This document shows, one piece after another, positions 3,589-43,159 of a DNA stretch of 45,006 bases. The stretch lies in the UHGV virus genome UHGV-0282798; one strand, given 5' to 3'. Position 1 is the stretch's first letter; the number at the start of each line of letters is the position of its first letter. Below the pieces are notes generated by a model. The model was not told where the DNA came from and did not search any database. It worked only from the letters and a program-made list of their open reading frames with translations. Position numbers and translations under genes: made by a program. Source of the stretch: a virus.

Positions 3589-3617
3589 AATATAATAGGG
3601 TCTACGGTAATAGTCAA
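3589..3617 (-). promoter_or_regulatory. Sigma70-type promoter (minus strand): TTGACT-17-TATATT
   Basis: Reverse complement of 3589-3617 reads TTGACT attaccgtagaccctat TATATT; sits between tandem terminators and the next minus-strand gene. Confidence 0.35.
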
Positions 3618-3639
3618 CTAGTCATTACAGAAAATAGAT

Positions 3640-7161: not shown

Positions 7162-7190
7162 TCTGTCTCTCCACTCGTTGGTGTAAATGA

Positions 7191-7219
7191 ATAGTAGCCT
7201 ATTCTATCTCAGTGTGCAA
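7191..7219 (-). promoter_or_regulatory. Sigma70-type promoter (minus strand) TTGCAC-17-TACTAT with AATAG-N4-CTATT dyad
   Basis: Reverse complement: TTGCAC (7214-7219), 17-bp spacer, TACTAT (7191-7196); dyad AATAGTAGCCTATT at 7190-7203. Confidence 0.45.
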
Positions 7220-7525
7220 GTAAATTTTATTGGCGTGTTATAGAATCTATGAACGACAGTAACGCGCGCTCCGCTTCTGCTTCTCTTTCTTCAAGCGACC
7301 AGGTAGCGGATTCCTCTGTTGCCGTTGCTATATCTGTTTTCACATCAATCATCGTGTTGATTAACGCGATTAGTCGTTCGGCCTGTTCTTTAGTAATCAT
7401 TGTTGCATCTCCTGCAATAGTCGCTTCTATTGTTGCGTTTGGTGAAATAGAACAAAAATGAGAAAAATGATACGCTGCTGTGTAGCAGCGTAAGTCACAA
7501 AGCCAAATAGTAACCTATTGACCTG

Positions 7526-7735
7526 TTACACCAGCGATGGTGGCTCGGGTAACGGCATCCGGTGAGTTACATTAGCTTCATCGTAATAGGATGAGTCATA
7601 CGAATGAATCTCCCAACTAACATAATCTCCATATCGGAGATAGTACCCCTCGTGGACTTGTCTTAAGTCGTCGTAAACAAGTACGTCCTCGCCTTCTTCC
7701 GGCATCCGCTCACTACACTTAATCCACTCACCCAT
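7526..7735 (-). CDS. DUF551-like small protein
   Basis: WIKCSERMPEEGEDVLVYDD ... VTHRMPLPEPP matches the pattern I recall for the DUF551 family. Confidence 0.45.
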   Translation of the reverse strand: MGEWIKCSERMPEEGEDVLVYDDLRQVHEGYYLRYGDYVSWEIHSYDSSYYDEANVTHRMPLPEPPSLV

Positions 7736-8672: not shown

Positions 8673-8697
8673 CCCTCTGTCTCGTTTCGATAAGTGA

Positions 8698-8726
8698 ATA
8701 GTATCCTATTATGTTTGGGTGTGCAA
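8698..8726 (-). promoter_or_regulatory. Sigma70-type promoter (minus strand) TTGCAC-17-TACTAT with dyad
   Basis: Reverse complement: TTGCAC (8721-8726), 17 bp, TACTAT (8698-8703); dyad AATAGTATCCTATT at 8697-8710; about 30 bp upstream of the first minus-strand early gene. Confidence 0.45.
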
Positions 8727-8899
8727 GAGAATAGTTACGTTGCCGTTGTGATTCTTTCGTTTCTTAAAAGAGTACGCAACGCAGGGGGTGGGCATTAGCC
8801 CACCCCAGCGGAGTGAAGTACTCTCTACCTTGCTCACGGCAACTATAGAAACTTTTAATTATCAGTGACTTGGGTATTTAGGCGGGATTAACAATAGAC

Positions 8900-9000
8900 T
8901 ATGGCCCTTCCGAATGCGGGCAGCGACACTACACTCAGTGCTAACGCACCGCTCCGTTCTCCTGCCGCACCGCGGTCGCTTGTTCATACTTCACAAGCTC
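8900..9000 (-). ncRNA. Conserved structured 5-prime leader RNA or small RNA (putative), copy 1
   Basis: About 100 nt downstream of the repeat promoter are conserved between copies with compensatory changes in two hairpins; the only ORF through it is not conserved in copy 2. Confidence 0.35.
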
Positions 9001-9006
9001 AGGTGG

Positions 9007-9035
9007 AGCTTAGCATATTTTTAGTGAAAAGTCAA
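9007..9035 (-). promoter_or_regulatory. Sigma70 promoter inside repeat copy 1 (minus strand): TTGACT-17-TGcTAAGCT
   Basis: Reverse complement: -35 TTGACT (9030-9035), 17-bp spacer, extended -10 TGC TAAGCT (9007-9015); identical in copy 2. Confidence 0.5.
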
Positions 9036-9083
9036 TATCAGTAGCATCTTTTGTATCTTAGTAACTTTGTTGTTGCTTTTTGC

Positions 9084-9112
9084 TTGAAGTACCATTATCT
9101 TAGGTACTTCAA
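9084..9112. promoter_or_regulatory. Perfect 10-bp inverted repeat (TTGAAGTACC / GGTACTTCAA)
   Basis: 9084-9093 and 9103-9112 with a 9-nt loop, about 20 bp upstream of the ATG of the first plus-strand replication-block gene. Confidence 0.4.
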
Positions 9113-9130
9113 CAACTGAGGGGTATTTAG

Positions 9131-9274
9131 ATGAAGATTTGCCAGATGTGTAGGAAAGAAAAAGAAGAAGGTGCATTCCTTAAACGTTATGACAGAAAAG
9201 GAACGCGTAGTTATTGCCGTGAATGTTTCAATGCATACCGCAAACAATTAAGAGAGGCTAAGAAGAATGCATAA
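9131..9274 (+). CDS. Small Zn-ribbon protein (47 aa)
   Basis: Own translation MKICQMCRKEKEEGAFLKRYDRKGTRSYCRECFNAYRKQLREAKKNA (CxxC ... CxxC); GAGGGG RBS; below ORF-track cutoff. Confidence 0.4.
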   Translation: MKICQMCRKEKEEGAFLKRYDRKGTRSYCRECFNAYRKQLREAKKNA

Positions 9275-9716
9275 ATACTTAGATGAGTTTCTGAAATCGT
9301 TAAACCTGATATTAGCCGAGAACCCGGGAGCGTCACTGCATGACATTAAATCGGCAATAGAACTCGACGGGCCAATTAGTGCCGTGATTTCATTGCTTGG
9401 GTATTTCGGGGAGATAGACCGTGTTTATGATGGTAGTAAATATCTGTATTGGGTTAAAGGCGGTAAGCCATCCAATGTTATATCAGTTCCTTTTCCCGAG
9501 AAGGGCCAACTTACGGAGTTACAAAAACTAGTCTATGGAAAATGTCTTGAACAGCAAGGCCGACGCATCACCCCTAGTGCGGTATACGCCCTGGTAAAAG
9601 ATGACGTCACCAATCTTGGTGCTGTCTGTACCGCTATGCGCGGACTTTCTAAAAAAGGTTTGTTGATTAAGGTGTGTGATGGCGTGTATGCTCTTGCAGT
9701 ACCAAACGCCAAATAA
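9267..9716 (+). CDS. Winged-helix-like DNA-binding protein
   Basis: ORF track; two similar half-sequences (LHDIKSAIELDG... and SAVYALVKDDVTNLGAVCTAMRGLSKKGLL) suggest tandem winged-helix folds. Confidence 0.45.
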   Translation: MHKYLDEFLKSLNLILAENPGASLHDIKSAIELDGPISAVISLLGYFGEIDRVYDGSKYLYWVKGGKPSNVISVPFPEKGQLTELQKLVYGKCLEQQGRRITPSAVYALVKDDVTNLGAVCTAMRGLSKKGLLIKVCDGVYALAVPNAK

Positions 9717-9774: not shown

Positions 9775-12042
9775 ATGTCCGATGTAATTTTATCCTACTC
9801 GTGGTCCCGTCGCAACGCGCGGGCAGAGAAAAAGGATATAAACGTCAGAACTACACACACGGCAACACTGGACGACCTGAAAGAGTTAATCCAGCCGCTC
9901 GATGCTGTTCGTGACGGAATTAACCCTAAGACAGCACCTGGCTATATTACTGCCGCGTGCGACTCAACGCACAGCACCGTAAAAGACCCGGAAACCGGTG
10001 ACTTTAAGCAAGCGCGTAAGGGTTTTTTCTATCGTTGCGACGCATCTGTAAGCAAATCGTCACTGGCGTATCTGGACTTCGACAGCGCAACACCGGAAGA
10101 GTATCAGGAAGCGGTGCGCCTGGTTAAGCGCAGCCGCCAGGCTATGTGCCTCTACACCACGGCATCGCATACCGATGAGTCTCCTCGCTTTCGCGTCGTC
10201 ATGCCGCTGGGACGCCCGGTCGAAGGTGGCGACATCATCCGCGTTCGTCATGGATTGCTCGGGCACTTCTTCAAAGGCATGGGTGCTGACCGCAGCGGGT
10301 TCACTCTGTCACAGCCGATGTACCTGCCGCCGGTTGGCGCTACCGTTATCTGGTCACGCCGCAATGACCTGATTGACCCGGACGAGTTACTGGAGGGTAT
10401 CCCCGCCGTTGACGTCAGCAGCGCATCGGATTACCAGATTCCGGAAGAACTGCGCACCGCGTTTACTGATGCGTTCGAGGTACTGGCGTTTGAGTACGGC
10501 GGCATCATGACGCCACGCGGCCTTAAGATGCCAGCTACACCGGAACACGCAGAAAACTACAGCGATCCAACACCGCGCCTGGACGACTTCCTATTGTGCT
10601 TTCCGCGCGAAGGGTACGAAGCGCCTAACGTAACCATGATTCACGACACCGACATTACCGCAACCGAAGGCATGTCGCCGAAGGAGGTGTGGAAGTATGC
10701 GTGTGATGCGACCGGGTTGCCGTTCAGTGAAGTCGCTGAGGCAATCGGCTGGGGTGCGCGTGAATCAGTTTCATGCAGCCTGGACGACCTGGAAGACGAT
10801 GAGGACTCAGAGGAGGACGAGTTACCAGAACCGGTAAAGGCTGATTTCGTCGTTGAAGGGTACATGCCGTCAGATTGTATCTGGGATATTGTCGGGGAAT
10901 CTGGCACGTACAAATCATTCTATACGCTGGGTATGATGTATCTCAGCGCCGCTGGTTACCGGTTTGCGGGGGCGGATACCCAGCGTTGTCACCATTTCTA
11001 TATCGATGGTGAGGGTGGTGCAGCCACACGTACACGTATCGATGCCCTCGCGGCTAAATATGGCGAGGAAGGTAAAGATTACGTACATGTCATCGATATG
11101 GGCGAAGTCGGCAAACTGAAAAGCCTGATTAAGTTAATGCGCGAAACCGCTGGCGATGAGCCAATAGGCATGGTTGCATTCGACACCCTTAACCAGACGC
11201 TGGCCCTGACAATCGATAAGTTCGACGAGAACAGTTCATCGACGGCAATCGGCATGGGTAAAGTTATCGCCATCCTGAAAGAAGTACGCGACGCAACTAA
11301 AGCCGCAGTAGGCGTTGTTCACCATACGCCGAAAGGCGGGAAGAAAGCACGTGGTAGCGGGGCACTGTATGCGGGTGTTGACGTGGAACTGACAATTGAG
11401 CGTGCAACCGACCGTCAGATAAACGTATATCACTCGAAATTTAAGCACGGGCCTCAACAGAAGACTGTTGGCATGGTTCTGGAGTCCGTACAGTTCCGTG
11501 AAGCCCCGCCGCCGAAACAGTACCGCGCGGTTGAGTTCCTGGGTAGCACAGAGGAATACGGCACAATCGTTAACCTCGACCTGCCGGAGCCGCACAAGGC
11601 GCTTGTGTTGATGCCGTGGGGCTTTGAACCGTTCAAGACCGACGAGGAGAAAGAGCGGGAAGAAGGGCTGACAAAGGAAGGTAAAGAAAACGTACGTAAA
11701 ACCGTAGAGAACGCCGTCAACAGCTCAGAAGCCACAATACTGGCAGCGTTTGAACTGGCGGAAGGAACCTACAACGGAAACGAAGGTATCACAGTAGCCG
11801 CAGCGAATAAGCTGGCACAGTCCGACCCCAACGCAAAGGCGTTTAACTCCAAAGAAGCCATAGAACGCGGGAAGATTAAGAAAATGGTTGAGGCCGGGTA
11901 TCTTGTACCGGGGACTGACGAAAACAATCAGATAATACCGGGCCGTTACAGACTTAACACCAGGATAACAGATAACAAGATTCCGAAGACAATATACGAA
12001 CCGAATGAAATGCTGACAGTGACCGAGGAGGATTTGGAATAG
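9775..12042 (+). CDS. Primase-polymerase (AEP) fused to RepA/DnaB-like helicase
   Basis: N-terminal AEP-like motifs (LDFDS, TTASHT); C-terminal P-loop GESGTYKS and Walker-B-like VAFDTLNQ; acidic linker DDLEDDEDSEEDE; C-terminus TVTEEDLE. Confidence 0.7.
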   Translation: MSDVILSYSWSRRNARAEKKDINVRTTHTATLDDLKELIQPLDAVRDGINPKTAPGYITAACDSTHSTVKDPETGDFKQARKGFFYRCDASVSKSSLAYLDFDSATPEEYQEAVRLVKRSRQAMCLYTTASHTDESPRFRVVMPLGRPVEGGDIIRVRHGLLGHFFKGMGADRSGFTLSQPMYLPPVGATVIWSRRNDLIDPDELLEGIPAVDVSSASDYQIPEELRTAFTDAFEVLAFEYGGIMTPRGLKMPATPEHAENYSDPTPRLDDFLLCFPREGYEAPNVTMIHDTDITATEGMSPKEVWKYACDATGLPFSEVAEAIGWGARESVSCSLDDLEDDEDSEEDELPEPVKADFVVEGYMPSDCIWDIVGESGTYKSFYTLGMMYLSAAGYRFAGADTQRCHHFYIDGEGGAATRTRIDALAAKYGEEGKDYVHVIDMGEVGKLKSLIKLMRETAGDEPIGMVAFDTLNQTLALTIDKFDENSSSTAIGMGKVIAILKEVRDATKAAVGVVHHTPKGGKKARGSGALYAGVDVELTIERATDRQINVYHSKFKHGPQQKTVGMVLESVQFREAPPPKQYRAVEFLGSTEEYGTIVNLDLPEPHKALVLMPWGFEPFKTDEEKEREEGLTKEGKENVRKTVENAVNSSEATILAAFELAEGTYNGNEGITVAAANKLAQSDPNAKAFNSKEAIERGKIKKMVEAGYLVPGTDENNQIIPGRYRLNTRITDNKIPKTIYEPNEMLTVTEEDLE

Positions 12043-12070
12043 GTAAAAAGAAAGGGGCGTTAAGCCCCTT
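12041..12070 (-). terminator. Intrinsic terminator for the repressor gene
   Basis: Stem AAGGGGC (12052-12058) / GCCCCTT (12064-12070); on the minus strand it is followed by UCUUUUUACC. Lies between the convergent primase and repressor genes. Confidence 0.5.
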
Positions 12071-12275
12071 CACCCAACGCCAGCCACTTGGCGTCTACTT
12101 GCAGCACTTCCGCCAGTTTAAACAGCGTTGCCGGGCGGACGTCCTGAGTTACCCCGAGTGCAAGCTGGTTAATCGCGCCCTGGGAAACGCCCGCAAGGAC
12201 CGCCAGACGGCGCTGGGAGATACCGAGTTCTTTACGGCGTTGCTCTACACGGATGCCTAGTTCAGATGGTTGCAT
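12060..12275 (-). CDS. XRE-family HTH transcriptional regulator (Cro/CI-like)
   Basis: 71 aa; QRRKELGISQRRLAVLAGVSQGAINQLALG is a classic XRE HTH. Confidence 0.75.
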   Translation of the reverse strand: MQPSELGIRVEQRRKELGISQRRLAVLAGVSQGAINQLALGVTQDVRPATLFKLAEVLQVDAKWLALGEGA

Positions 12276-12305
12276 GTCAATTACTCCTTAGTCAGTTGAT
12301 ATGTG

Positions 12306-12368
12306 AATAGTACCATATTAATTATTTTAGAAAAGCCCATTGACACGTGAATAGTTCGCTATTATAGT
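12306..12368 (+). promoter_or_regulatory. Promoter TTGACA-17-TATAGT with two AATAG-N4-CTATT dyads
   Basis: -35 TTGACA 12340-12345, -10 TATAGT 12363-12368; dyads AATAGTACCATATT (12306-12319) and AATAGTTCGCTATT (12350-12363); divergent from the repressor start at 12275. Confidence 0.5.
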
Positions 12369-12400
12369 TAGCCTATACCAAACGAGAGGAGAGAAACAAA

Positions 12401-12550
12401 ATGATTAACAACCGCAAAGCAAAGGTTCTGTTGGGCCTTGATATCGCATTTGGAACTAAAGAAACCGCACGCTATCGCGTAAGCAACAATCGTGTTGGCT
12501 TCTTCGACAAAGCTACAGGCCAGTTAGTTAAAACCGTTAAATATAAATAA
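12401..12550 (+). CDS. Small ORF (49 aa)
   Basis: Own translation MINNRKAKVLLGLDIAFGTKETARYRVSNNRVGFFDKATGQLVKTVKYK; RBS GAGAGGAGAGAAACAAA; first gene after the promoter. Confidence 0.4.
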   Translation: MINNRKAKVLLGLDIAFGTKETARYRVSNNRVGFFDKATGQLVKTVKYK

Positions 12551-12565
12551 ACAGGAGAGAAACAA

Positions 12566-13066
12566 ATGTTAGACCAATTCTTAAAATTACTGGAACGTTT
12601 CGTAGTTGCACATGAACTGATTGCTGCGAACAGCGCGAAAGAACCTGTGATTGGCTCCCCGGAACATTTTGCTGAGTTTTGTAAGTTGCAGGGTGTAAGT
12701 GTAAAAGAGGCTTTAACTAAACCTTCAAAAGAAATCCCGGTCGAAGGTGAAGACATCGTCGACACTAAACCGGCAGAAGAAGAGAAGCCAAAACGTAAGA
12801 CGCGTAAAGCTAAAGTAGAGGAACCAACGCCAGAACCGGAAGAAGAGAAAGAAGAAGTCGATTACCAGTCTCTTCGTGACCAGATTCAGGCTATCGATGA
12901 TGCAATTAACGAAGGTCCGAGTGATGCTGCGTGTGACGATTCTGATGAACTGCTGGAAGAGTTCACCGGTAAGAAGATGAAGATTGCCGCGATTAAAGAC
13001 GAAGACCTGGCCGAGTACCTGGAACGCCTCACGGCAATCAAGAACAAGTATTTCGAAGAAGAATAA
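12566..13066 (+). CDS. Acidic hypothetical protein
   Basis: ORF track; RBS AGGAGAGAAACAA nearly identical to that of the preceding small ORF; Glu/Asp-rich with a K/R patch. Confidence 0.5.
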   Translation: MLDQFLKLLERFVVAHELIAANSAKEPVIGSPEHFAEFCKLQGVSVKEALTKPSKEIPVEGEDIVDTKPAEEEKPKRKTRKAKVEEPTPEPEEEKEEVDYQSLRDQIQAIDDAINEGPSDAACDDSDELLEEFTGKKMKIAAIKDEDLAEYLERLTAIKNKYFEEE

Positions 13067-13121
13067 CTACTTAACTTATGGTGCCATCATACGTGAGGGC
13101 ACCAAACTGAGGGTCGGAATT

Positions 13122-13610
13122 ATGGATTGGCATGAGATATTCGACTATGACCGCGCCACAGGAAAATTGTATTGGAAAATACAGCCATCTCATGCGGTTA
13201 AGCCGGGTGAAGAGGCTGGAAGTGTGGGAACTGAGGGTTATGTAGATGTTGGTTTTGCAGGCCGTTTATATAAGGCGCATCGCATTATATGGGATATGAT
13301 GAACACTGACGATAAACTAACGCCGAACCACCAAATAGACCACATAAACCATATCAGAACGGATAATAGGATAGAAAATTTAAGGAAGGTACACCACTGT
13401 GACAACGCCAAAAATCAAAGCATGCGCGTAGACAATACCTCAGGTGTCGCGGGAGTATACTTCGACCGAACTAATAGAAAATGGAGGGCCCGCATTAGGG
13501 CGAGTGGCACGACCATTTGTTTGGGGAGATACGATAGTTTAGAAGAAGCCGCATGCGCACGCCAGAAAGCAGAAGAGATTTACGGGTTTCACAAAAATCA
13601 TGGGGGGTAA
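13122..13610 (+). CDS. HNH-AP2 homing-type endonuclease
   Basis: HQIDHINHIRTDNRIENLR (HNH) followed by AGVYFDRTNRKWRARIRASGTTICLGRYDSLEEAACARQKAEEIYG (AP2). ORF track starts at 12984; ATG 13122 (MDWHEIF) with RBS avoids overlap. Confidence 0.75.
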   Translation: MDWHEIFDYDRATGKLYWKIQPSHAVKPGEEAGSVGTEGYVDVGFAGRLYKAHRIIWDMMNTDDKLTPNHQIDHINHIRTDNRIENLRKVHHCDNAKNQSMRVDNTSGVAGVYFDRTNRKWRARIRASGTTICLGRYDSLEEAACARQKAEEIYGFHKNHGG

Positions 13611-14855: not shown

Positions 14856-15088
14856 TTCGTAAAATGTTCGGAGTAATTGGCGGTTTTGTAGCGTTTTTAA
14901 CCTATCACGCTCTAATACTGCCGCTGGTTATAATGCTTCTTCCGTTTTTCGTGTATACCGCCTTTAAGTGCAGGAAAATAGAACTAGAGGATTTGGTGTA
15001 CGCCAAAGAAGTTGAGTGGGTGCGTAATTTGAAGTGGCCCAACGTATACCTAACTATAGTTGAGAAAATAACTGGCTGGAAGGGTTGA
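14852..15088 (+). CDS. Small membrane protein
   Basis: ORF track begins at 14822; ATG 14852 has RBS GAGGAGG. Hydrophobic segments FGVIGGFVAFLTYHALILPLVIMLLPFFVYTAF. Confidence 0.4.
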   Translation: MIRKMFGVIGGFVAFLTYHALILPLVIMLLPFFVYTAFKCRKIELEDLVYAKEVEWVRNLKWPNVYLTIVEKITGWKG

Positions 15089-15113
15089 CACCTGAATAGC
15101 AAGCTATTATAGT
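15085..15113 (+). promoter_or_regulatory. Promoter TTGACA-17-TATAGT with perfect dyad
   Basis: -35 15085-15090, -10 15108-15113; dyad AATAGCAAGCTATT 15095-15108; about 55 bp upstream of the SSB gene. Confidence 0.5.
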
Positions 15114-18611: not shown

Positions 18612-18892
18612 CCCCGGAAGGCAAGATTCAGAAATACGCAAAAGAGAGGTTCGAGGCCCTGGGCGGCCTCGTTAGAAAATTGTCGTACGAAAATAGAGTA
18701 GGCGCTCCTGACCTGCTGGTGATTCTCCCCTGGAGCATCGTCTGGTTCGTCGAGGTGAAGAAAGACGAAAACACGAAGCCAGACCCGCACCAGCTACGTG
18801 AGCACGAGCGGATGCGCAAACGCGGTGCAAATGTTTTTGTCGTTGGTTCGTTTAAACAGGTTGACGACCTAATAGCGAACTATTATAGTTAG
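18608..18892 (+). CDS. VRR-NUC domain nuclease
   Basis: GAPDLLVIL ... FVEVKK ... Q pattern typical of VRR-NUC. Track ORF 18593; ATG 18608 (MTPEGKIQ). Confidence 0.55.
   Translation: MTPEGKIQKYAKERFEALGGLVRKLSYENRVGAPDLLVILPWSIVWFVEVKKDENTKPDPHQLREHERMRKRGANVFVVGSFKQVDDLIANYYS
18861..18889 (+). promoter_or_regulatory. Promoter TTGACG-17-TATAGT with dyad
   Basis: -35 18861-18866, -10 18884-18889; dyad AATAGCGAACTATT 18871-18884; lies inside the 3-prime end of the VRR-NUC gene. Confidence 0.45.
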
Positions 18893-28272: not shown

Positions 28273-28923
28273 ATGATACCCACAGAAAAAGTAGCTAAGA
28301 GTATGTGGCTGCGCGCGAATTATCCCGCGAACAAAAGCAGCAAAACTAGGCGTGCAACTATATGCGATTTTGGCATAAATGATGCCGATTATGTGGTTAG
28401 TCCTAAGATAAACGGCAACCGTGAGCCGTGTCCTGCGTACGCTACGTGGCGAGGGATGATCCAACGTTGCATAGACGTCGAGTATAAAAACAAAAGACCT
28501 GCATACAAGGATGTAACTGTGTGGCATGGGTGGCAAAGGTTTATGTCCTTCCGTAGATGGTGGCTTTGTAATTACGTAGAAGGATGGGAACTAGATAAGG
28601 ACTTATTCTCTGGTATTAATAAGATATACAGCCCCACCACTTGCATTTTTATTCCGCAATGGTTGAATGTTTTTCTACTGGAAAGGAAAAATAGTGGGTC
28701 ACCTACAGGTGTTTTTTATGAAGAATCAAGAGGTAAATTTAAAGCCTCAGTGAAATATGAGAAAAAAACTATTAATCTAGGACGTTTTGAAACTCAGGAA
28801 GAAGCGCTAGATGCCTACATCGCTGAAAAGATAAGGATAGCAGAATCAAGAAGATGCGAGATAGAGGCGATAAGAGAAGGTATGTTCGCCCGCGTTATCG
28901 CCTTGATAAAAGAGGGGCGTTAG
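28273..28923 (+). CDS. AP2-domain protein, putative free-standing endonuclease with atypical N-terminal domain
   Basis: C-terminal AP2-like GVFYEESRGKFKASVKYEKKTINLGRFETQEEALDAYIAEK; Trp-rich N-terminal domain (YATWRGMIQRC ... VWHGWQRF) with no HNH motif visible; opposite strand to flanking tail genes. Confidence 0.5.
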   Translation: MIPTEKVAKSMWLRANYPANKSSKTRRATICDFGINDADYVVSPKINGNREPCPAYATWRGMIQRCIDVEYKNKRPAYKDVTVWHGWQRFMSFRRWWLCNYVEGWELDKDLFSGINKIYSPTTCIFIPQWLNVFLLERKNSGSPTGVFYEESRGKFKASVKYEKKTINLGRFETQEEALDAYIAEKIRIAESRRCEIEAIREGMFARVIALIKEGR

Positions 28924-32120: not shown

Positions 32121-32149
32121 TTGCACACCCCAATATAATAGGGTACTAT
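32121..32149 (+). promoter_or_regulatory. Promoter TTGCAC-17-TACTAT with dyad (island promoter)
   Basis: -35 32121-32126, -10 32144-32149; dyad AATAGGGTACTATT 32137-32150; same TTGCAC/TACTAT class as 7191 and 8698. Confidence 0.5.
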
Positions 32150-32179
32150 TCACCTACACCAACAATGGAGGGATTTAAA

Positions 32180-32409: not shown

Positions 32410-33540
32410 ATGGCCCATAAGAAAATAACCGACGAACAGTTACAGGAAGAATTGAACGCCGGAATGAAGAATGCAGACATCGCCCGTAAATACGGCATCT
32501 CAGACCGCGTAATTCGTATCCGTAAAGCGAAGCTGGCTAAGAAAGGCGTAGGCCACGGGCGTGACGTTAGTCACCTTGTCCCGGACGGCTACAAAATTAA
32601 AGGGACCTCGTCACTGGTGGACGAGTTCGGCAACACTAAACTTCAATGGGTTAAGACCGACACCGATGCCGAACGTCAGGTCGAGTTGATGAAAGCCGTA
32701 ATCGAAGGCATGAAGTCGGAGATTACTCCAGTTGCACCAGTTAAAGCCGTTCGCGCCAAACGTGACGATAAACTACTCAATCTTTACACGGTATCTGATT
32801 TCCATCTCGGTATGCTGGCCTGGGCCGACGAGAGCGGCGACGACTGGGATATGAAGATTGCGGAAGACCTGTTCTCTCGCTGGTTCGATGCTGCGTTCCA
32901 GAAAGCGCCAGATGCAGGAACAGGAGTTATTAACCTGCTTGGCGACCTTGCGCACTTCGATAGTCTGGATGCCGTTACACCTGCAAGCGGCCATGTTCTT
33001 GACGCGGACACGCGCTATCAGAAACTGGTCCGCTACATGATTCGTATGGTTCGCCGTGTTATTGATATGGCGCTGGTTAAGCATAAAAATGTTCGCTTGC
33101 TTATCGTGCAAGGGAACCACGACGAAAGTGGAATGATTTGGTTAGCTGAGATGTTCAGTACGCTGTACGACAATGAGCCGCGTGTGTTTGTCGATACTTC
33201 ACCAGATGTTTACAAGATGGTGCAACACGGCAAAACGACGCTGTTCTTTACACACGGGCATAAATGCCGGTTTGAGGTTGTCGAACCAATTATGATAGCT
33301 AAGTTCAGAAAAGCATTTGGAGAAAGCGAGTACAGTTACGCGCATGTAGGGCATCTCCACCATCAAAAGATTGTAGAAAGTAGGAATATGGTAGTGGAGC
33401 AACATCGCACTCTCGCGGCGAAAGATGCATATGCTTCCCGCGGCGGGTGGATGTCTAAGAGGTCCGCTAATGTCATAACCTATAGTTCAGAGTTCGGGGA
33501 AGTAGGTAGGCTTTCAATCTCACCGGAGATGCTAAGATGA
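32410..33540 (+). CDS. HTH domain fused to calcineurin-like metallophosphoesterase
   Basis: N-terminal HTH (MKNADIARKYGISDRVIRIRKAKL); phosphoesterase motifs SDFHLG, LGDLAHFD, VQGNHDE, FTHGH, HVGHLHH. Track ORF 32320; ATG 32410 (MAHKKITDEQ) preceded by GAGGAAG. Confidence 0.65.
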   Translation: MAHKKITDEQLQEELNAGMKNADIARKYGISDRVIRIRKAKLAKKGVGHGRDVSHLVPDGYKIKGTSSLVDEFGNTKLQWVKTDTDAERQVELMKAVIEGMKSEITPVAPVKAVRAKRDDKLLNLYTVSDFHLGMLAWADESGDDWDMKIAEDLFSRWFDAAFQKAPDAGTGVINLLGDLAHFDSLDAVTPASGHVLDADTRYQKLVRYMIRMVRRVIDMALVKHKNVRLLIVQGNHDESGMIWLAEMFSTLYDNEPRVFVDTSPDVYKMVQHGKTTLFFTHGHKCRFEVVEPIMIAKFRKAFGESEYSYAHVGHLHHQKIVESRNMVVEQHRTLAAKDAYASRGGWMSKRSANVITYSSEFGEVGRLSISPEMLR

Positions 33541-34007
33541 AGTACCTTGATGTTTCAAAACAATTTAAATACTGCCCTGATACGGGGCAGGTTACCAGGA
33601 TATCTACTGGTGCTGAGGTTGGTACGGTTGGTGTAAGAGGATATCTGTGCTGCGGTATGGGTGGTAAAACAGTATATGTCCACCGCGTAGCATGGTGTCT
33701 TTATAATAAATGTGACTTAGACAGGAAAACACAAATAGACCACATAAACCATAACAGGCTAGACAATAGAATAGAAAATCTACGCGCCACCGACAATACA
33801 GGGAACAGTAAAAATAAAACTATGAGAAAGATAAATAAATCCGGGGCTACAGGTGTAAGTTTCCACAAAGCCGCGGGTAAGTGGCGCGCGTTTATAAAAG
33901 TTAACTACAAACAAGTGCATTTAGGGCTTTACGACGATTTTGATGTAGCGGTTGCCGCGCGTAAAGCCGCTGAGAGTAAATACGGTTTTCATGAAAACCA
34001 TGAGTAG
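33537..34007 (+). CDS. HNH-AP2 homing-type endonuclease
   Basis: HRVAWCLYN ... QIDHINHNRLDNRIENLR (HNH) and GVSFHKAAGKWRAFIKVNYKQVHLGLYDDFDVAVAARKAAESKYG (AP2); paralog of 13122-13610. Confidence 0.75.
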   Translation: MKYLDVSKQFKYCPDTGQVTRISTGAEVGTVGVRGYLCCGMGGKTVYVHRVAWCLYNKCDLDRKTQIDHINHNRLDNRIENLRATDNTGNSKNKTMRKINKSGATGVSFHKAAGKWRAFIKVNYKQVHLGLYDDFDVAVAARKAAESKYGFHENHE

Positions 34008-38947: not shown

Positions 38948-39997
38948 TTAAGCACCGACACCAGTTACCAGGAAGGCAATCGGTACATGCTTACGCTCAA
39001 CAACGCGGTTCCAGTTGGAGGCGTTCGCCAGGTCCTGCCAGGAAGCAGAGCGTGCGACAGTCTCGGTGCCGTTGCCGGTGATTACCGCGCTGGTGAAGCT
39101 GTAGCCCAGTGGGTGCAGCAACCAGGTCTTACGGGTCCACAGGGTTTCAACGCCGCCGCCGTTACCGCGAGACGCTTCACGCTCGTATTCCAGCGGGTTT
39201 GACGGATTACCTTCACCGTAACCGATAGCGCCGTTACCGAAGATGGTGGAGATGAACTTACGGCTAGGACCAGTACCGACTACGGTCATGCTGTCGTCAA
39301 CAATCACGCGGTAGCCCTGGTAGGTGGCGAACATGGTGTTGTTGTCAGCGTCTTTGATGAAGTCAATAAGCTGCTGCTTACGGGCCTGCGCATAAACGAA
39401 ACTGTGCATCGCGATAGCACCCAGTACTTCACCACCGTTACCCATCAGAGCATCGCCCATGGTCTGGGTAGCGTCGATGAATGCGCCCGCGTCGAAGCCC
39501 AGAGTCGCGGACACGTCTACTACCATGTCGTTCTGCTCGTGGTAAGCATCGGTCGCGGCAACGTTGTCGTTGTACAGGCCGAGCGCAGTGGCAATCAGAC
39601 GGCGTTGTGCCTGACGCTGCCAGAAGTTATCCAGACGGGACGCTACAGATTGCAGCGGGTTCTGGCTGGTCAGTTCGACAGTCAGGTCAGCCTGGCCAAA
39701 ACCTTCGTTCAGGTACGCAACGCGCGCCATCATCTCACCGGTCTGCACGTTACGCGGGGTTGCGATGTCCTGGTATACGTCGTTCGAGTAGTTTGGCTCG
39801 ATAGAGGTATCAATCGCTTTCCAGAAAGGAATATTAGCGACGTTGGACGGGCCACGAGCAATCTCGGCAGCGTACGGGGTCGGGGTAAGGATACCGGACT
39901 GGAAGAACGCGGTTTTTTCTACCGGGTCTTCTGTCATGTAAGACGCCAGGACCGGGATGTTGCCAGTTACGATATCGCCGATAGTGGTAATTGCCAT
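38948..39997 (-). CDS. Major capsid protein (putative)
   Basis: 349 aa directly downstream of scaffold; strong RBS GAGGAAATAATA before the ATG; positional call. Confidence 0.6.
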   Translation of the reverse strand: MAITTIGDIVTGNIPVLASYMTEDPVEKTAFFQSGILTPTPYAAEIARGPSNVANIPFWKAIDTSIEPNYSNDVYQDIATPRNVQTGEMMARVAYLNEGFGQADLTVELTSQNPLQSVASRLDNFWQRQAQRRLIATALGLYNDNVAATDAYHEQNDMVVDVSATLGFDAGAFIDATQTMGDALMGNGGEVLGAIAMHSFVYAQARKQQLIDFIKDADNNTMFATYQGYRVIVDDSMTVVGTGPSRKFISTIFGNGAIGYGEGNPSNPLEYEREASRGNGGGVETLWTRKTWLLHPLGYSFTSAVITGNGTETVARSASWQDLANASNWNRVVERKHVPIAFLVTGVGA

Positions 39998-39999
39998 TA

Positions 40000-40755
40000 T
40001 TATTTCCTCAGGGCTTTAAGTTGCCGTTCAAATTCGGCAGGGTTCGATTTATACAGAGCTAAACGCTCCGCTTCACTCATGTCTTTAAACGCTGGTGCGG
40101 CCCCGCCGCCTTTGCTACCGGAAGCCCCGCCGCCGGAAGCTGCATTTGCTTTAATCAAATGCGAAAACGCTTTGTGTTCACGCAGGTATTTGCGGAACTG
40201 TTCCGGGTCAGTCGTGATTACGTTGCCGTCTGCTCCGACAAACTTAGTAACCACGTCATCGCCTTCAAACTCGGTCTTAACGAACGGAGCCAGGATGTCC
40301 ACTGCTTCCGGGGTGATAAAGTCACCCGCGAAAGAGCCTAACACCGCTTTACGTTCGCTGCCGAGGATACGCTCCGCCATTCTGGAGATGCGGCCGTCTT
40401 TCTCGGCTAACACCGGGTCATACTGGCTACGAATCGTCTTTTCAAACTCGTCCATCTTACCAGCGGCTTTTAACGCCTCCTGGTGTGCGCGCTGCCGTTC
40501 TTCTTCGGCCTCTTTTGCTTTGCGAGCGGCTTCTTTCTTCTCCGCCAGCAATGCTTCCTGATTAGCCTTAAGCCCGGCTACTTCTTTCTCAATCAGCGCC
40601 TGAACTTCTTCAGCGGTGAACATTTTCGGCGCATCACCGCCGCCAGATTTATCTTCTGTCCCAGCTTCTTCCTGGAACGGATAACGTAAAAAACGATTCA
40701 TAGTCAGTATGTCCCCTGGACGTTGGAATCCGGGCCACCCGGATTTACATGTCAA
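40000..40755 (-). CDS. Capsid scaffolding protein (putative)
   Basis: Charged helical protein (EEVQALIEKEVAGLKANQEALLAEKKEAARKAKEAEEERQRAHQEALKAAGK) immediately upstream of the capsid gene; likely start ATG 40699-40701 (track start is TTG). Confidence 0.55.
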   Translation of the reverse strand: MTCKSGWPGFQRPGDILTMNRFLRYPFQEEAGTEDKSGGGDAPKMFTAEEVQALIEKEVAGLKANQEALLAEKKEAARKAKEAEEERQRAHQEALKAAGKMDEFEKTIRSQYDPVLAEKDGRISRMAERILGSERKAVLGSFAGDFITPEAVDILAPFVKTEFEGDDVVTKFVGADGNVITTDPEQFRKYLREHKAFSHLIKANAASGGGASGSKGGGAAPAFKDMSEAERLALYKSNPAEFERQLKALRK

Positions 40756-41279: not shown

Positions 41280-41397
41280 GTTTCCCCTTTCTCGATAAGT
41301 AAAGCCCCGCCTTAAAGCGGGGCGCTAGTCCTTATCATTTAAACATAGAAACGGCGTAATCTCAGTAAACCAGTTACTCTTTACACAAGCAAAAGAG

Positions 41398-41532
41398 TAT
41401 GGCCCTTCCGAACGCGTCAGCGTAACTACACTCAGGACTTACGTCCCGCTCCGTTACCTGCCCGCGCCGCGGTCGCTCGTTCATACTTCACAAGCTCAGG
41501 TGGAGCTTATCATATTTTTAGTGAAAAGTCAA
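41398..41532. repeat. Repeat copy 2 of the ~135-bp promoter-plus-leader element
   Basis: Aligns with 8900-9035; lies between the terminator at 41591-41617 and the Rz start at 41279. Confidence 0.85.
41504..41532 (-). promoter_or_regulatory. Sigma70 promoter inside repeat copy 2 (minus strand): TTGACT-17-TGaTAAGCT
   Basis: Reverse complement: -35 41527-41532, -10 41504-41509 with upstream TG. Confidence 0.5.
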
Positions 41533-42083: not shown

Positions 42084-43159
42084 TATTCCCCTTTCAGATA
42101 ATCAGCAACACGTTTATCGAGTTCCGCCATCTGCTTAAGCGTGAGCGGATTCCCGAAACCATCTACAGATATTACGCGAAACTCTTCCGGCGATATACCG
42201 CTGTTACGGAAAATCTTACCGCGAACAGGGCCGAGTGCTTCATCCACGAACCATGCCGGTTGTTGTTTAAGGAACTCGTAGTAAGTAGTGTCCGCGCTTA
42301 CCTGAGTACCCCCGTCGGCACCCTTAGCTGCACGTTTTGCACCTTTATCCAAGAAGTCGAACTCAGAGCTGATTACTGGCGCAGTGGTACTCCGGCAATT
42401 CGGATGTGCTGGCGGCATCGGCCCCTTACCGATTTCCCACGTCATTCCGTCTCTGGCCCTACAAATCGTACTGGTACGGCTGTCCAGCGTCGACACCCAC
42501 TCGTACTTCTCGATGATGTCGTCGTTCTGGCGGTACGTCTCGTTACGGGCTTCGTTGGATATGTGAGACAGCGCGGTGCGGATTACCGTAGCCGCGTTGC
42601 GCTCAGAGATGTCGGCCAGGCCACCAGCGCCAACAACATTCTTAACAATCTGCCGTGTTGTCTGGCCTTGTACAAAGCCCATCTTAACGCCGGTTACCAG
42701 GCGCGCGACTTCTGTTTCACCCCAGCCTGACATCAGCTTAGTGAAATCAACAGGCTTGTCGCTTAACGATAGCGGCTGAAACTCGGCAGCGGCCCACACC
42801 TGTTCAGCAGTGGGTGTAACAAATTCCGCGTCTACGTTAGCCGTCAGCGTTTTTACATTCCACTCCGCTTCATACGCCGCCAGTTCTTTAAGGTCTTCTG
42901 TCAGCTTTGTTTGCCAGTCGCCTGTAAGTCCGCTCAGTGCTTCTTCCAGGTCGCGTAACAATTTATTCAGTCGCGCAGTGCTGCGACCGTCGTCGCCGAA
43001 TAACAGCACCTGCCGTTTGATTTCGTCTCGCATTTCCTGAAGAAACGGCGCAAGGTCTTTCACTTCACCGGATGCGGTGCGTTGCAGCCATATCTGGTGG
43101 CTGATTAGGGATGTAAGTAAGCTCATAGTTAAATCCTGTGGCGCTAAAGTTAATAGCAT
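42083..43159 (-). CDS. Head morphogenesis protein (Mu F / SPP1 gp7-like, putative)
   Basis: PAHPNCRSTTAPV resembles the conserved motif of this family; position after portal. Confidence 0.55.
   Translation of the reverse strand: MLLTLAPQDLTMSLLTSLISHQIWLQRTASGEVKDLAPFLQEMRDEIKRQVLLFGDDGRSTARLNKLLRDLEEALSGLTGDWQTKLTEDLKELAAYEAEWNVKTLTANVDAEFVTPTAEQVWAAAEFQPLSLSDKPVDFTKLMSGWGETEVARLVTGVKMGFVQGQTTRQIVKNVVGAGGLADISERNAATVIRTALSHISNEARNETYRQNDDIIEKYEWVSTLDSRTSTICRARDGMTWEIGKGPMPPAHPNCRSTTAPVISSEFDFLDKGAKRAAKGADGGTQVSADTTYYEFLKQQPAWFVDEALGPVRGKIFRNSGISPEEFRVISVDGFGNPLTLKQMAELDKRVADYLKGE

What the first reader, a model, noticed from the sequence alone, without database searches (positions are those of the whole stretch)
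12041..12550. Repressor gene convergent with the primase inside the replication operon, with a Cro-position small ORF
The XRE repressor is on the minus strand, ends in a terminator shared with the primase 3-prime end, and diverges from a strong plus-strand promoter whose first gene is a 49-aa ORF (12401-12550). This resembles a CI/Cro switch without integrase or other lysogeny functions. It may be a remnant of a temperate ancestor now used for temporal control, or a pseudolysogeny / carrier-state switch.
Basis: inference. Interest (0 to 1): 0.5.

Follow-up and report, generated by a model that had tools for sequence, protein, structure and literature searches.

The report
Cro-like repressor with genome-wide operators
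This virulent E. coli phage (a Kagunavirus) has one 71-residue Cro-like repressor gene and no partner repressor, and its likely 14-bp binding site sits inside most of the phage's own promoters, so it looks like a lytic-cycle transcription brake rather than a lysogeny switch.

Summary
The anatomy is largely real. A 71-aa XRE/HTH_3 gene (12060-12275, minus) converges on the helicase-primase gene. It diverges from a near-consensus promoter (TTGACA-17-TATAGT, 12340-12368) followed by a 49-aa ORF. Two details fail. The terminator is canonical only for the HTH transcript. The 49-aa ORF is a rare cassette, present in 6 of about 485 related phage records and 5 of 48 IMG/VR loci, sitting in a slot that holds at least 7 unrelated ORFs or nothing. 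It is not a Cro counterpart.

The HTH protein itself resembles phage 434 Cro (same length, E 1.8e-6). It is the only XRE HTH in all six frames. It is conserved across Kagunavirus, Jerseyvirus and Cornellvirus.

The main new result is the palindrome AATAG-N4-CTATT. It flanks the HTH promoter (12306 imperfect, 12350 perfect) and occurs 7 times perfectly in the window (0.04 expected). These copies lie inside promoter-like sites for replication, early and accessory operons. Half-sites are invariant and the centre varies. Cornellvirus carries a different variant at the matching promoters.

Best reading: a CI-less, autoregulated repressor that damps many phage promoters during lytic growth. No prophage relatives were found. 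DNA binding is inferred, not shown.

The parts
9775..12042 (+). Replicative helicase-primase gene (755 aa), convergent with the HTH gene
   Evidence: Pfam AAA_25 E 2.1e-17 and phrog_3228 E 1e-286.
12041..12071 (-). Intrinsic terminator of the HTH transcript. The stem is GGGGC/GCCCC (12054-12058 / 12064-12068), the HTH stop codon lies in the loop, and the T-run is on the minus strand only.
   Evidence: Found only on the minus strand. Present in all 48 related loci, and with a different stem sequence in Jersey-type phages.
12060..12275 (-). 71-aa single-domain XRE/HTH_3 protein resembling 434 Cro; the proposed repressor
   Evidence: Pfam HTH_3 E 1.2e-12. Solved 434 Cro E 1.8e-6 over residues 6-68. 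AlphaFold2 model has five helices and pLDDT 79. Foldseek matches SinR-N, the 434 repressor and Cro, C.AhdI and P22 C2. It is the only XRE HTH in six frames.
12284..12289 (-). Shine-Dalgarno AAGGAG of the HTH gene
   Evidence: Read from the sequence. Conserved in Jersey, Shemara, fFiEco02 and EC3-1.
12306..12319 (.). Operator OB, AATAGTACCATATT. One half-site is imperfect. It overlaps the candidate -10 (TACTAT, 12312-12307, minus strand) and start region of the HTH promoter.
   Evidence: All 36 Kaguna-type IMG/VR loci carry a single mismatch here: 35 keep the same ATATT half-site and 1 has a different substitution. The site is also degenerate in Jersey and Shemara.
12324..12351 (-). Alternative candidate HTH promoter, TTCACG-16-TAAAAT (9 of 12)
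   Evidence: Promoter scan. A TAAAAT-like -10 is also present in Shemara. The true start site is unknown.
12340..12368 (+). Strong sigma-70-type promoter, TTGACA-17-TATAGT, of the exonuclease operon
   Evidence: 11 of 12 matches. The same design recurs at 15085 and 18861.
12350..12363 (.). Operator OA, AATAGTTCGCTATT, a perfect palindrome. It fills the promoter spacer and ends on the first T of the -10.
   Evidence: It is perfect in all 36 Kaguna-type loci, with six different central tetramers.
12387..12566 (+). Inserted cassette: the 49-aa ORF (12401-12550) bounded by an exact 14-nt repeat, AGGAGAGAAACAAA (12387-12400 and 12553-12566)
   Evidence: Repeat found. The ORF is in 6 phage records and 5 of 48 loci. 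The slot is polymorphic.
12566..13066 (+). Conserved first core gene of the operon (166 aa, phrog_3127, function unknown)
   Evidence: phrog_3127 E 1e-67. Found in 485 phage records.
15085..15113 (+). Promoter TTGACA-17-TATAGT with the palindrome AATAGCAAGCTATT (15095-15108); drives the single-strand-binding protein (DUF2815) and DNA polymerase A genes
   Evidence: An orthologous site exists in Jersey at 32930, inside a promoter annotated by the depositor.
18861..18889 (+). Promoter TTGACG-17-TATAGT with the palindrome AATAGCGAACTATT (18871-18884); drives small genes and an SNF2 helicase
   Evidence: The Jersey ortholog is at 29243.
32121..32150 (+). Second-class promoter TTGCAC-17-TACTAT with the palindrome AATAGGGTACTATT (32137-32150); drives an Imm-like gene, a metallophosphatase exonuclease and an HNH gene
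8697..8732 (-). Second-class promoter (TTGCAC-17-TACTAT on the minus strand) with the palindrome at 8697-8710; drives small early genes 8672 down to 7526
   Evidence: Conserved in L022 and L023.
7190..7225 (-). Second-class promoter with the palindrome at 7190-7203; drives genes from 7161 down to the holin and endolysin
   Evidence: The Jersey ortholog at 39910 lies inside an annotated promoter.
7506..7519 (.). Perfect palindrome AATAGTAACCTATT next to the terminator at 7471-7492, with no good -35 nearby. Its role is unclear.
3589..3622 (-). Promoter TTGACT-17-TATATT whose -35 lies inside a one-mismatch palindrome (3609-3622); leads through the NinH region towards the terminase genes
   Evidence: The same one-mismatch site is present in Jersey at 42338, inside an annotated promoter.

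Best explanation
The window is a Kagunavirus genome (subfamily Guernseyvirinae, virulent E. coli siphophages).

Proposed mechanism. The minus-strand gene encodes a 71-aa, single-domain helix-turn-helix protein of the 434 Cro type. I propose that it binds as a dimer to the 14-bp palindrome AATAG-N4-CTATT. That palindrome lies within the spacer or the -10 of most recognisable sigma-70-type phage promoters. These include the divergent exonuclease-operon promoter beside the gene, the promoter for the single-strand-binding protein and DNA polymerase genes, the helicase-operon promoter, two early-gene promoters, the Imm/metallophosphatase accessory block, and a promoter leading towards the packaging genes. 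Bound there, the protein would block host RNA polymerase.

Autoregulation. Its own weak promoter carries a conserved weaker site with one imperfect half-site. The protein would therefore keep accumulating until the strong sites are filled, and only then limit itself.

Net effect. This is a one-protein negative-feedback brake on early and middle transcription during a purely lytic cycle, the job Cro does in lambdoid phages. There is no CI partner and no bistable switch.

The 49-aa ORF is unrelated cargo inserted in a hot spot just after the strong promoter.

Shown: the gene, its fold class, the promoter-like sites, the palindrome's enrichment, placement and conservation, and the absence of a partner repressor or of prophage forms.

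Inferred: that this protein binds the palindrome, that binding represses, and the timing.
For: Protein.
- HTH_3 E 1.2e-12.
- The best solved relative is 434 Cro: 71 aa, aligned over residues 6-68, E 1.8e-6.
- The model has five helices with pLDDT 79 and matches Cro, CI N-terminal domain, SinR-N and controller-protein folds.
- The recognition helix GVSQGAINQLALG is invariant in relatives down to 76% identity.
- It is the only XRE HTH in six frames.

Motif enrichment.
- An unbiased count of 5+N+5 palindromes ranks AATAG-N4-CTATT first, with 7 copies.
- Seven perfect copies against 0.043 expected. Eleven copies with at most one mismatch against 1.06-1.25 expected. No shuffle reached the observed count.
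- Six of the 7 perfect copies lie in non-coding gaps.

Motif placement.
- All three TTGAC(A/G)-17-TATAGT promoters carry it in the same register.
- Three TTGCAC-17-TACTAT sites carry it over the -10.
- Four of the 7 promoters that the depositors annotated in phage Jersey overlap a site.

Conservation pattern.
- Across the window, L022, L023, Jersey and 48 IMG/VR loci the half-sites do not change, while the central 4 bp take at least six forms.

Link to a phage-encoded factor.
- Two copies bracket the HTH gene's own promoter in every genome examined.
- Cornellvirus Shemara (HTH 39% identical) has no copy with at most one mismatch. It has its own variant, AATAC-N4-CTAAT, at the matching single-strand-binding-protein, exonuclease, own-gene and other promoters.
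- Jersey and Shemara share a host species, which argues against a host factor.
- The Xis/MerR-like HTH of relatives is absent from this window, so it is not the binder.

Context.
- The HTH gene heads the primase operon in Shemara and Scapp, which is the Cro position.
- An HTH gene is among the 4 early genes in Kagunavirus K1B4 RNA-seq (PMC12645636).
- Close homologs occur only on contigs of 45 kb or less, and none was found in 185,579 species genomes.
Against: - There are no binding or expression data for this protein.
- Jersey's recognition helix (SQSLITH) differs from the window's (SQGAINQ) at four of seven positions, yet the motif is the same. Shemara's helix is closer to Jersey's, yet its motif differs. 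Residue-level covariation therefore does not support the link.
- The palindrome keeps a fixed register within each promoter class. That could reflect duplicated promoter cassettes or a promoter element rather than an operator.
- One perfect site (7506) is not at a recognisable promoter.
- The primase-operon region and the structural operons show no site.
- The second-class promoters are weak by consensus (7 of 12) and no start sites have been mapped.
- I could not verify that K1B4 gene 008 is the ortholog.
- An uncharacterised phage protein could be the true binder.
Confidence: 0.6

Rival explanations
1. Local autoregulator only. The HTH protein controls just its own promoter and the divergent promoter. 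The genome-wide palindrome is then either a promoter-class element inherited by duplication or the site of another, unidentified phage protein.
For: The palindrome keeps a fixed register within each promoter class. Recognition-helix residues do not track motif differences cleanly. Two genome papers treated the same repeat simply as 'phage promoters' found by PHIRE (PMC9825357 and PMC7203180).
Against: Two-fold symmetry with invariant half-sites and a free 4-bp centre is what a dimeric HTH site looks like, and sigma-70 has no such requirement. The same motif brackets the HTH gene's own promoter. The motif changes in concert at at least 7 promoters in Shemara. No RNA polymerase gene is present. 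No other DNA-binding protein shared with Jersey was recognised apart from NinH.
Confidence: 0.2
2. Dormancy, carrier-state or pseudolysogeny repressor. Because its sites cover most promoters, the protein alone can silence an injected genome in some cells and keep it as a non-integrated episome.
For: Operators lie in most recognisable promoters, including the one leading towards the packaging genes. Leftovers of temperate type occur in relatives, namely a Xis-like recombination directionality factor and an Ant-type anti-repressor (PMC9409062). Serratia phage eta shares only the structural module and forms unstable lysogens without an integrase (PMC3918226).
Against: The protein has no oligomerisation or RecA-sensitive domain (71 aa). 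Its own promoter is weak and negatively autoregulated, so nothing supports a stable high-repressor state. No partition, integration or plasmid-replication genes were seen. All 48 IMG/VR loci and all close homologs lie on contigs of 45 kb or less, and none is in a bacterial genome. The group is described as strictly virulent (PMC9409062, PMC13216507). Phage eta does not share this regulatory module.
Confidence: 0.08
3. One reading: a CI/Cro-type bistable switch in which the 71-aa protein plays CI and the 49-aa ORF plays Cro.
For: The genes are divergent with a two-site control region, which superficially resembles an immunity region.
Against: The 49-aa ORF is in 6 of about 485 records and 5 of 48 loci. 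The slot is empty in 30 of 48 loci and otherwise holds unrelated ORFs. The ORF has no HTH match. The 71-aa protein has the size and sequence of a Cro, not a CI. Each operator sits on a different promoter.
Confidence: 0.02
4. Host- or prophage-directed regulator. The protein mimics a resident prophage repressor such as DicA and acts on host or prophage promoters.
For: 42% identity to the N-terminal part of Rac DicA (E 2e-5) and GenBank labels such as 'transcriptional repressor DicA'.
Against: The similarity is at the level of generic XRE domains. The over-represented cognate-looking sites are in the phage's own promoters. No host site was tested.
Confidence: 0.05

Closest known systems
Phage 434 Cro (and lambdoid Cro function in general)
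   Same: Both are 71 aa and share the five-helix HTH_3 fold. It is the best solved-structure match by sequence (E 1.8e-6; about 40% identity). In Cornellvirus and Scappvirus the gene is first in the operon that carries the replication gene. The proposed role is to turn down early promoters during lytic growth.
   Different: No CI partner shares the operators and there is no tripartite OR/OL. Sites occur at 8-11 places across the genome rather than two. In this window the gene is monocistronic with its own terminator and converges on the primase gene. Binding has not been tested.
Restriction-modification controller (C) proteins, such as C.AhdI and C.BclI
   Same: They are small, single-domain XRE proteins with close predicted structural similarity. 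Each acts alone as a concentration-dependent timing device, through paired palindromic sites at its own promoter that differ in affinity.
   Different: C proteins activate and then repress one operon that also encodes the endonuclease. Here there is no restriction-modification system. The sites overlap core promoter elements, so only repression is expected, and they are spread over many operons.
Dispersed-operator phage repressors: P1 C1 and mycobacteriophage L5 gp71 (from my own knowledge)
   Same: One repressor has many sites spread over the genome, at or near promoters, so a single protein can silence most of the phage.
   Different: Those are lysogeny repressors of temperate phages, are unrelated in sequence, and bind asymmetric sites. 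This phage group is virulent and its sites are symmetric.
Lambda-type CI repressors
   Same: The N-terminal HTH_3 fold and operator-binding logic are shared. There are weak matches to the 434 and P22 repressor DNA-binding domains.
   Different: There is no C-terminal dimerisation or S24 self-cleavage domain, because the whole protein is 71 aa. There is no sign of cooperative binding, inducibility or positive autoregulation.

Membership tests
XRE / HTH_3 DNA-binding domain (Pfam PF01381) | Sequence match above the curated threshold | tested here: met
   48.1 bits against a cut-off of 23, E 1.2e-12, covering residues 11-65.
XRE / HTH_3 DNA-binding domain (Pfam PF01381) | Five-helix fold with the helix-turn-helix at helices 2-3 | tested here: met
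   AlphaFold2 model with pLDDT 79.2 and helices at 5-17, 21-28, 32-39, 48-57 and 62-66. Foldseek TM 0.7-0.8 to SinR-N, 434 repressor and Cro, and P22 C2.
434 Cro-type lytic repressor | Single-domain protein of about 70 aa with no C-terminal oligomerisation or cleavage domain | tested here: met
   71 aa, aligned with 434 Cro over residues 6-68. All homologs are 68-84 aa.
434 Cro-type lytic repressor | Binds two-fold symmetric operators overlapping early promoters | not testable with these tools
   Candidate operators were found and are highly enriched. Binding itself needs EMSA or footprinting.
434 Cro-type lytic repressor | First gene of the early operon that carries the replication genes | tested here: inconclusive
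   Met in Shemara and Scapp, where the order is HTH then primase. Not met in this window or in Jersey, where the gene is monocistronic and converges on the primase gene.
CI/Cro bistable immunity switch | A second, antagonistic repressor transcribed divergently and sharing the operators | tested here: not met
   Only one XRE HTH is found in six frames. The divergent first ORF is a rare cassette with no HTH match.
CI/Cro bistable immunity switch | Association with integration or other lysogeny functions and with prophage forms | tested here: not met
   No integrase-like gene appeared among the annotated ORFs. Relatives occur only on contigs of 45 kb or less. None was found in 185,579 species genomes.
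Lambda-type CI repressor | C-terminal S24 peptidase or dimerisation domain | tested here: not met
   The protein is 71 aa and the HTH domain fills it. Only a sub-threshold Phage_CI_repr match to the HTH part was found (17.5 bits against a cut-off of 22).
Restriction-modification controller (C) protein | Encoded with, and controlling, a restriction endonuclease gene | tested here: not met
   The gene is monocistronic between its own promoter and terminator, and its neighbours are the primase and exonuclease operons.
XRE antitoxin (HipB/HigA type) | Co-transcribed with a toxin gene | tested here: not met
   No co-directional neighbouring gene exists in any of the 48 loci. The terminator follows the stop codon directly.
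Promoters for a phage-encoded RNA polymerase (reading given in PMC9825357) | The phage encodes its own RNA polymerase | tested here: not met
   No RNA polymerase family was found among the large ORFs. The 855-aa ORF is a tail protein. The repeats lie within sigma-70-type -35/-10 pairs.

The most novel reading that the evidence does not exclude
Because its operators sit in most promoters, the single 71-aa repressor might be able to silence an injected genome completely in a fraction of cells, for example starved ones. That would give this group a repressor-based, non-integrated dormant or carrier state. Kagunavirus and Jerseyvirus are treated as strictly virulent and are widely used for therapy and food biocontrol. 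A captured copy of the gene would also make a host immune to every phage that shares the AATAG-N4-CTATT operator.
Probability: 0.08. Interest if true: 0.7.

Novelty: new variant of a known kind. Interest (0 to 1): 0.4.

Why it matters
Safety calls. Kagunavirus and Jerseyvirus phages are among the most often isolated candidates for therapy and biocontrol against E. coli and Salmonella. GenBank records for this gene carry labels such as 'repressor', 'DicA' or 'cro', and lifestyle screens look for repressors. If the gene is a Cro-only lytic regulator with no partner and no prophage forms, it should not be read as a lysogeny marker.

Literature correction. The work gives a testable meaning to a repeat that two genome papers reported as promoters. 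One of them assigned it to a phage RNA polymerase that these phages do not encode.

If the binding is confirmed:
- One 71-aa protein and a 14-bp site would explain how a small virulent siphophage that depends on host polymerase orders or limits its transcription.
- The pair would be a compact repressor-operator tool for engineering these phages.
- It predicts cross-immunity between genera that share the operator (Kagunavirus and Jerseyvirus) but not with Cornellvirus.

Tried and rejected
- Two-protein switch: rejected on the distribution of the 49-aa ORF.
- Shared bidirectional terminator: rejected, because the T-run is on one strand only.
- Xis/MerR-like HTH of relatives as the palindrome binder: rejected, because it is absent from this window while the sites remain.
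- Phage RNA polymerase promoters (the reading in PMC9825357): rejected, because there is no polymerase gene.
- Integrase candidate: the 385-aa plus-strand ORF at 39404-40561 has no family match. It is a shadow of the minus-strand capsid gene at 38948-39997.
- Prophage relatives: the genome-contig scan gave only generic XRE hits of 48% identity or less. The large protein search gave 20 close hits, all on phage-sized contigs. All 48 IMG/VR loci are on contigs of 45 kb or less.
- Serratia phage eta (unstable lysogeny) shares only the structural module, so it is not informative for this locus.
- Mapping K1B4 gene 008 to this ortholog: the supplements hold only host gene tables.
- Residue-level covariation between the recognition helix and the operator: not clean.
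- Host-factor sites: I compared the motif from memory with the ArgR, CRP and IHF consensus sequences and saw no fit. This was not a formal test.
- Rfam and tRNA scans of the window: nothing found.
- One literature search was too loose and returned nothing useful.


Full report
IDENTITY OF THE WINDOW. The region 11500-13100 matches 446 phage records. E. coli Kagunavirus records match at 90-95% identity and Salmonella Jerseyvirus records at 80-90%. The window is therefore essentially a whole genome of a K1G-like siphophage of subfamily Guernseyvirinae. The literature treats this group as strictly virulent (PMC9409062, PMC13216507).

CHECK OF THE OBSERVATION. Most of the described anatomy is present.
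- The ORF at 12060-12275 (minus, 71 aa) matches Pfam HTH_3 with E 1.2e-12, and PHROG repressor and regulator families.
- It converges on the 755-aa helicase-primase gene at 9775-12042 (AAA_25, phrog_3228).
- The 125-bp gap holds TTGACA-17-TATAGT at 12340-12368, scoring 11 of 12.
- A 49-aa ORF at 12401-12550 follows, and then a conserved 166-aa gene of phrog_3127.

Two details do not hold.
- The hairpin between the convergent genes (stem 12054-12058 / 12064-12068) has the HTH stop codon in its loop and a T-run only in the HTH direction. All 48 related IMG/VR loci show the same design, whatever lies downstream. Jersey-type phages use a different stem sequence. It is the HTH gene's own terminator. 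Primase-operon transcripts have no canonical stop there, so they may read antisense through the HTH gene. That last point is inference.
- The 49-aa ORF is not a fixed partner. tblastn finds it in 6 phage records, against 485 for the gene after it and about 480 Guernseyvirinae records for the HTH gene.

THE SLOT AFTER THE PROMOTER. I measured the distance from the HTH start to the phrog_3127 start in 48 IMG/VR loci.
- In 30 loci it is 124-134 bp, which leaves no room for an insert.
- The other loci hold the 49-aa ORF (5 loci) or unrelated ORFs of 37, 53, 58, 75 and 85 aa, or an HNH endonuclease.
- In the window the insert is bounded by an exact 14-nt duplication of the ribosome-binding site, at 12387-12400 and 12553-12566.
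The site is a cargo hot spot behind a strong promoter, not a Cro position.

WHAT THE PROTEIN IS.
- The best match among solved structures is phage 434 Cro. It is also 71 aa and aligns over residues 6-68 with E 1.8e-6. The 434 repressor DNA-binding domain, HipB and P22 C2 follow.
- An AlphaFold2 model (pLDDT 79) has the five helices of the fold. By Foldseek it matches SinR-N, the 434 repressor and Cro, the controller proteins C.AhdI and C.BclI, HipB and P22 C2.
- There is no room for a CI-type C-terminal domain.
- A profile search of all 791 stop-to-stop ORFs in six frames finds no second XRE protein.
- The gene is conserved across the subfamily: 95-100% identity within Kagunavirus, about 50% in Jerseyvirus and about 39% in Cornellvirus. 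The recognition helix is invariant in relatives down to 76% identity.
- In Cornellvirus Shemara and in Serratia phage Scapp the gene is the first gene of the operon that continues into the primase gene. That operon diverges from the exonuclease, single-strand-binding-protein and polymerase operon. This is the lambdoid PR layout of cro followed by replication genes, but with no cI between the arms.
- In Kagunavirus and Jerseyvirus the primase segment has the opposite orientation. This leaves the HTH gene as a one-gene unit.

THE MAIN NEW RESULT: THE OPERATOR IS GENOME-WIDE.
- The local 25-nt direct repeat (12296-12320 and 12340-12364) contains a 14-bp palindrome. It is AATAGTTCGCTATT at 12350, which is perfect, and AATAGTACCATATT at 12306, which has one mismatch.
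- An unbiased count of all 5+N+5 palindromes ranks AATAG-N4-CTATT first in the window, with 7 perfect copies.
- The expected number is 0.043. With at most one mismatch there are 11 copies against 1.06-1.25 expected, and no shuffle reaches the observed count.
- The perfect copies are at 7190, 7506, 8697, 12350, 15095, 18871 and 32137. Six of them lie in non-coding gaps.

PLACEMENT WITHIN PROMOTERS.
- The three best promoters of one design, TTGAC(A/G)-17-TATAGT at 12340, 15085 and 18861, all carry the palindrome in the same register. It fills the spacer and ends on the first T of the -10.
- A second design, TTGCAC-17-TACTAT, carries it over the -10. It occurs at 32121 on the plus strand and at 8697 and 7190 on the minus strand.
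- A one-mismatch copy at 3609 overlaps the -35 of TTGACT-17-TATATT.

GENES BEHIND THESE PROMOTERS.
- The exonuclease operon.
- The single-strand-binding protein and DNA polymerase A genes.
- Small genes plus an SNF2 helicase.
- Two blocks of small early genes, running on to the holin and endolysin genes.
- An Imm-like, metallophosphatase and HNH accessory block.
- The NinH region, which leads to the terminase genes.
I found no site in the primase-operon leader or within the structural operons.

CONSERVATION OF THE SITES.
- Phage Jersey has 4 perfect and 3 one-mismatch copies at the orthologous places. Four of the 7 promoters annotated by its depositors overlap a site.
- In two contigs whose HTH protein is 77% identical, and in 36 Kaguna-type IMG/VR loci, the half-sites never change. 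The central four bases at the 12350-equivalent site take six forms: TTCG, TTCA, TTAG, TTTG, CTCG and CTAG.
- The site next to the HTH gene has one mismatch in all 36 Kaguna-type loci. In 35 of them, and in the window, it is the same imperfect half-site, ATATT. The site is also degenerate in Jersey and Shemara.

WHY I ASSIGN THE SITES TO THE HTH PROTEIN.
- The motif has the symmetry and size expected for a Cro-type dimer.
- It brackets the protein's own promoter in every genome examined.
- Shemara has no copy of the motif even at one mismatch. It has its own variant, AATAC-N4-CTAAT, with 3 perfect and 4 one-mismatch copies in promoter positions. These lie at its single-strand-binding-protein, exonuclease, own-gene, metallophosphatase and other promoters. 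That variant is absent from the window and from Jersey.
- Jersey and Shemara both infect Salmonella enterica. The factor that reads the motif is therefore more likely encoded by the phage than by the host.
- The Xis/MerR-like HTH found upstream of the primase gene in Jersey and fFiEco02 is absent from this window, so it cannot be the binder.

CAVEATS ON THAT ASSIGNMENT.
- Recognition-helix residues do not track the motif cleanly. Jersey differs from the window at four of seven positions but shares its motif.
- The fixed register within each promoter class could partly reflect duplicated promoter cassettes.
- The site at 7506 sits beside a terminator, not a promoter.
- No start sites are mapped.
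- Nothing here tests binding.

PROPOSED MECHANISM.
- Host RNA polymerase starts at the strong phage promoters on entry.
- The HTH gene is read from a weak promoter. The candidate -10 is either TACTAT at 12312-12307 or TAAAAT at 12329-12324.
- As the protein accumulates it fills the perfect sites in the spacer or -10 of the early and replication promoters and turns them down. Only later does it fill the weaker site on its own promoter.
- This is the role Cro plays in lambdoid lytic growth, and it also resembles the single-protein timing of restriction-modification controller proteins.
- Each of the two local sites sits on a different promoter. Nothing produces the mutual exclusion needed for a bistable switch.
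- RNA-seq of Kagunavirus K1B4 lists an HTH-domain gene among only 4 early genes (PMC12645636). This is consistent, but I could not confirm that it is the ortholog.

LYSOGENY QUESTION.
- No integrase, second repressor or partition function was seen. The one integrase-sized ORF is a shadow of the capsid gene.
- Close homologs of the HTH protein (75-97% identity) occur only on contigs of 45.3 kb or less among 5.8 billion proteins.
- All 48 IMG/VR loci are on contigs of 45.1 kb or less.
- One genome each from 185,579 bacterial and archaeal species holds nothing closer than 48% identity.
- Others have noted temperate-type leftovers in Jerseyvirus, namely a recombination directionality factor and an Ant-type anti-repressor. 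They suggested a lost temperate past (PMC9409062). That remains possible but untested.
- A repressor-based carrier state is not excluded, because the sites cover most promoters. Nothing supports it either.

RELATION TO WHAT IS KNOWN.
- GenBank records already label this gene as a transcriptional repressor, DicA, cro or regulator.
- The repeat has been seen before. The fBC-Eco01 paper reports seven PHIRE hits with consensus tgAATAGTa-ccTATTat-T and assigns them to a phage-encoded RNA polymerase (PMC9825357). The Golestan paper also lists seven PHIRE 'promoters' (PMC7203180).
- These phages encode no RNA polymerase.
- In the literature I searched, I found no paper linking the repeat to the Cro-like protein or placing it inside sigma-70-type promoters, and none reporting the conserved weak self-site, the Cornellvirus variant, or the cargo-slot nature of the small ORF.
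- I class the finding as a new variant of a known kind: a Cro-type repressor without CI, with operators dispersed across the genome in the way P1 C1 or L5 gp71 sites are, but in a virulent phage.

VERDICT.
- The two-protein switch reading is not supported.
- The 'temporal control' alternative is the best-supported reading, at confidence about 0.6.
- Interest is moderate (0.4). A specialist would not be astonished. The result does correct published interpretations, matters for lifestyle calls on therapy phages, and gives sharp experiments.

Noticed in passing
window 8896-9035 and 41394-41532 (plus strand); also L001 1501-1645 and L023 13334-13192: A non-coding element of about 140 nt is present twice in the window at 88% identity, with the last 61 nt matching at 59 of 61. 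It is conserved upstream of the primase operon in fFiEco02 and in a Logan contig. It ends in the hairpin AAGCTC-aggtg-GAGCTT followed by TTTTT. An internal hairpin differs in sequence but keeps its pairing in all four copies (GTGC/GCAC, GGAC/GTCC, GTGCC/GGCAC, CCTGT/ACAGG). This suggests a structured small RNA or regulatory element. There is no Rfam match, and RNAalifold did not pick up the variable hairpin.
   Followed up: partly
window 9086-9110: A perfect 8-bp inverted repeat, GAAGTACC-N9-GGTACTTC, lies just upstream of the first gene of the primase operon (9131). It carries no AATAG palindrome. It could be the operator of a different regulator.
   Followed up: no
window 9131-9716: The slot upstream of the primase gene is variable. 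This window has a 47-aa Cys-rich (zinc-ribbon-like) ORF and a 149-aa ORF with no family match. Jersey, fFiEco02 and other relatives have a Xis/MerR-like HTH plus a small protein there instead.
   Followed up: partly
window 7506-7519: A perfect copy of the palindrome sits between the end of the minus-strand gene 7526-7735 and the terminator at 7471-7492, with no convincing -35. It might be a roadblock site or a remnant. Jersey has a one-mismatch copy near the equivalent terminator at 39668.
   Followed up: partly
window 8673-9130: An unusually long non-coding stretch of about 460 bp lies between the divergent early and primase operons. It contains a strong GC hairpin, GGGGTGGGC-atta-GCCCACCCC, at 8785-8806 with no T-run. 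An origin of replication or other cis element is possible.
   Followed up: no
window 13110-13610, 28273-28923, 33537-34007: Three HNH (HNH_3/AP2-type) homing-endonuclease-like genes are scattered through the replication, tail and accessory regions. One lies on the opposite strand inside the tail operon.
   Followed up: no
L002 3402-3716; L022 10239-10553: Some relatives carry an extra 104-aa ORF between the primase gene and the HTH terminator, so both flanks of the HTH unit are insertion hot spots.
   Followed up: no
window 39404-40561 (plus strand): A 385-aa ORF of integrase-like length has no family match. It is a shadow of the minus-strand major capsid gene at 38948-39997. It is worth knowing for automated lifestyle screens.
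   Followed up: yes
literature: PMC9825357, PMC7203180: Two Kagunavirus genome papers report seven PHIRE repeats as promoters. One gives the consensus tgAATAGTa-ccTATTat-T and assigns the repeats to a phage RNA polymerase that the genus does not encode.
   Followed up: yes
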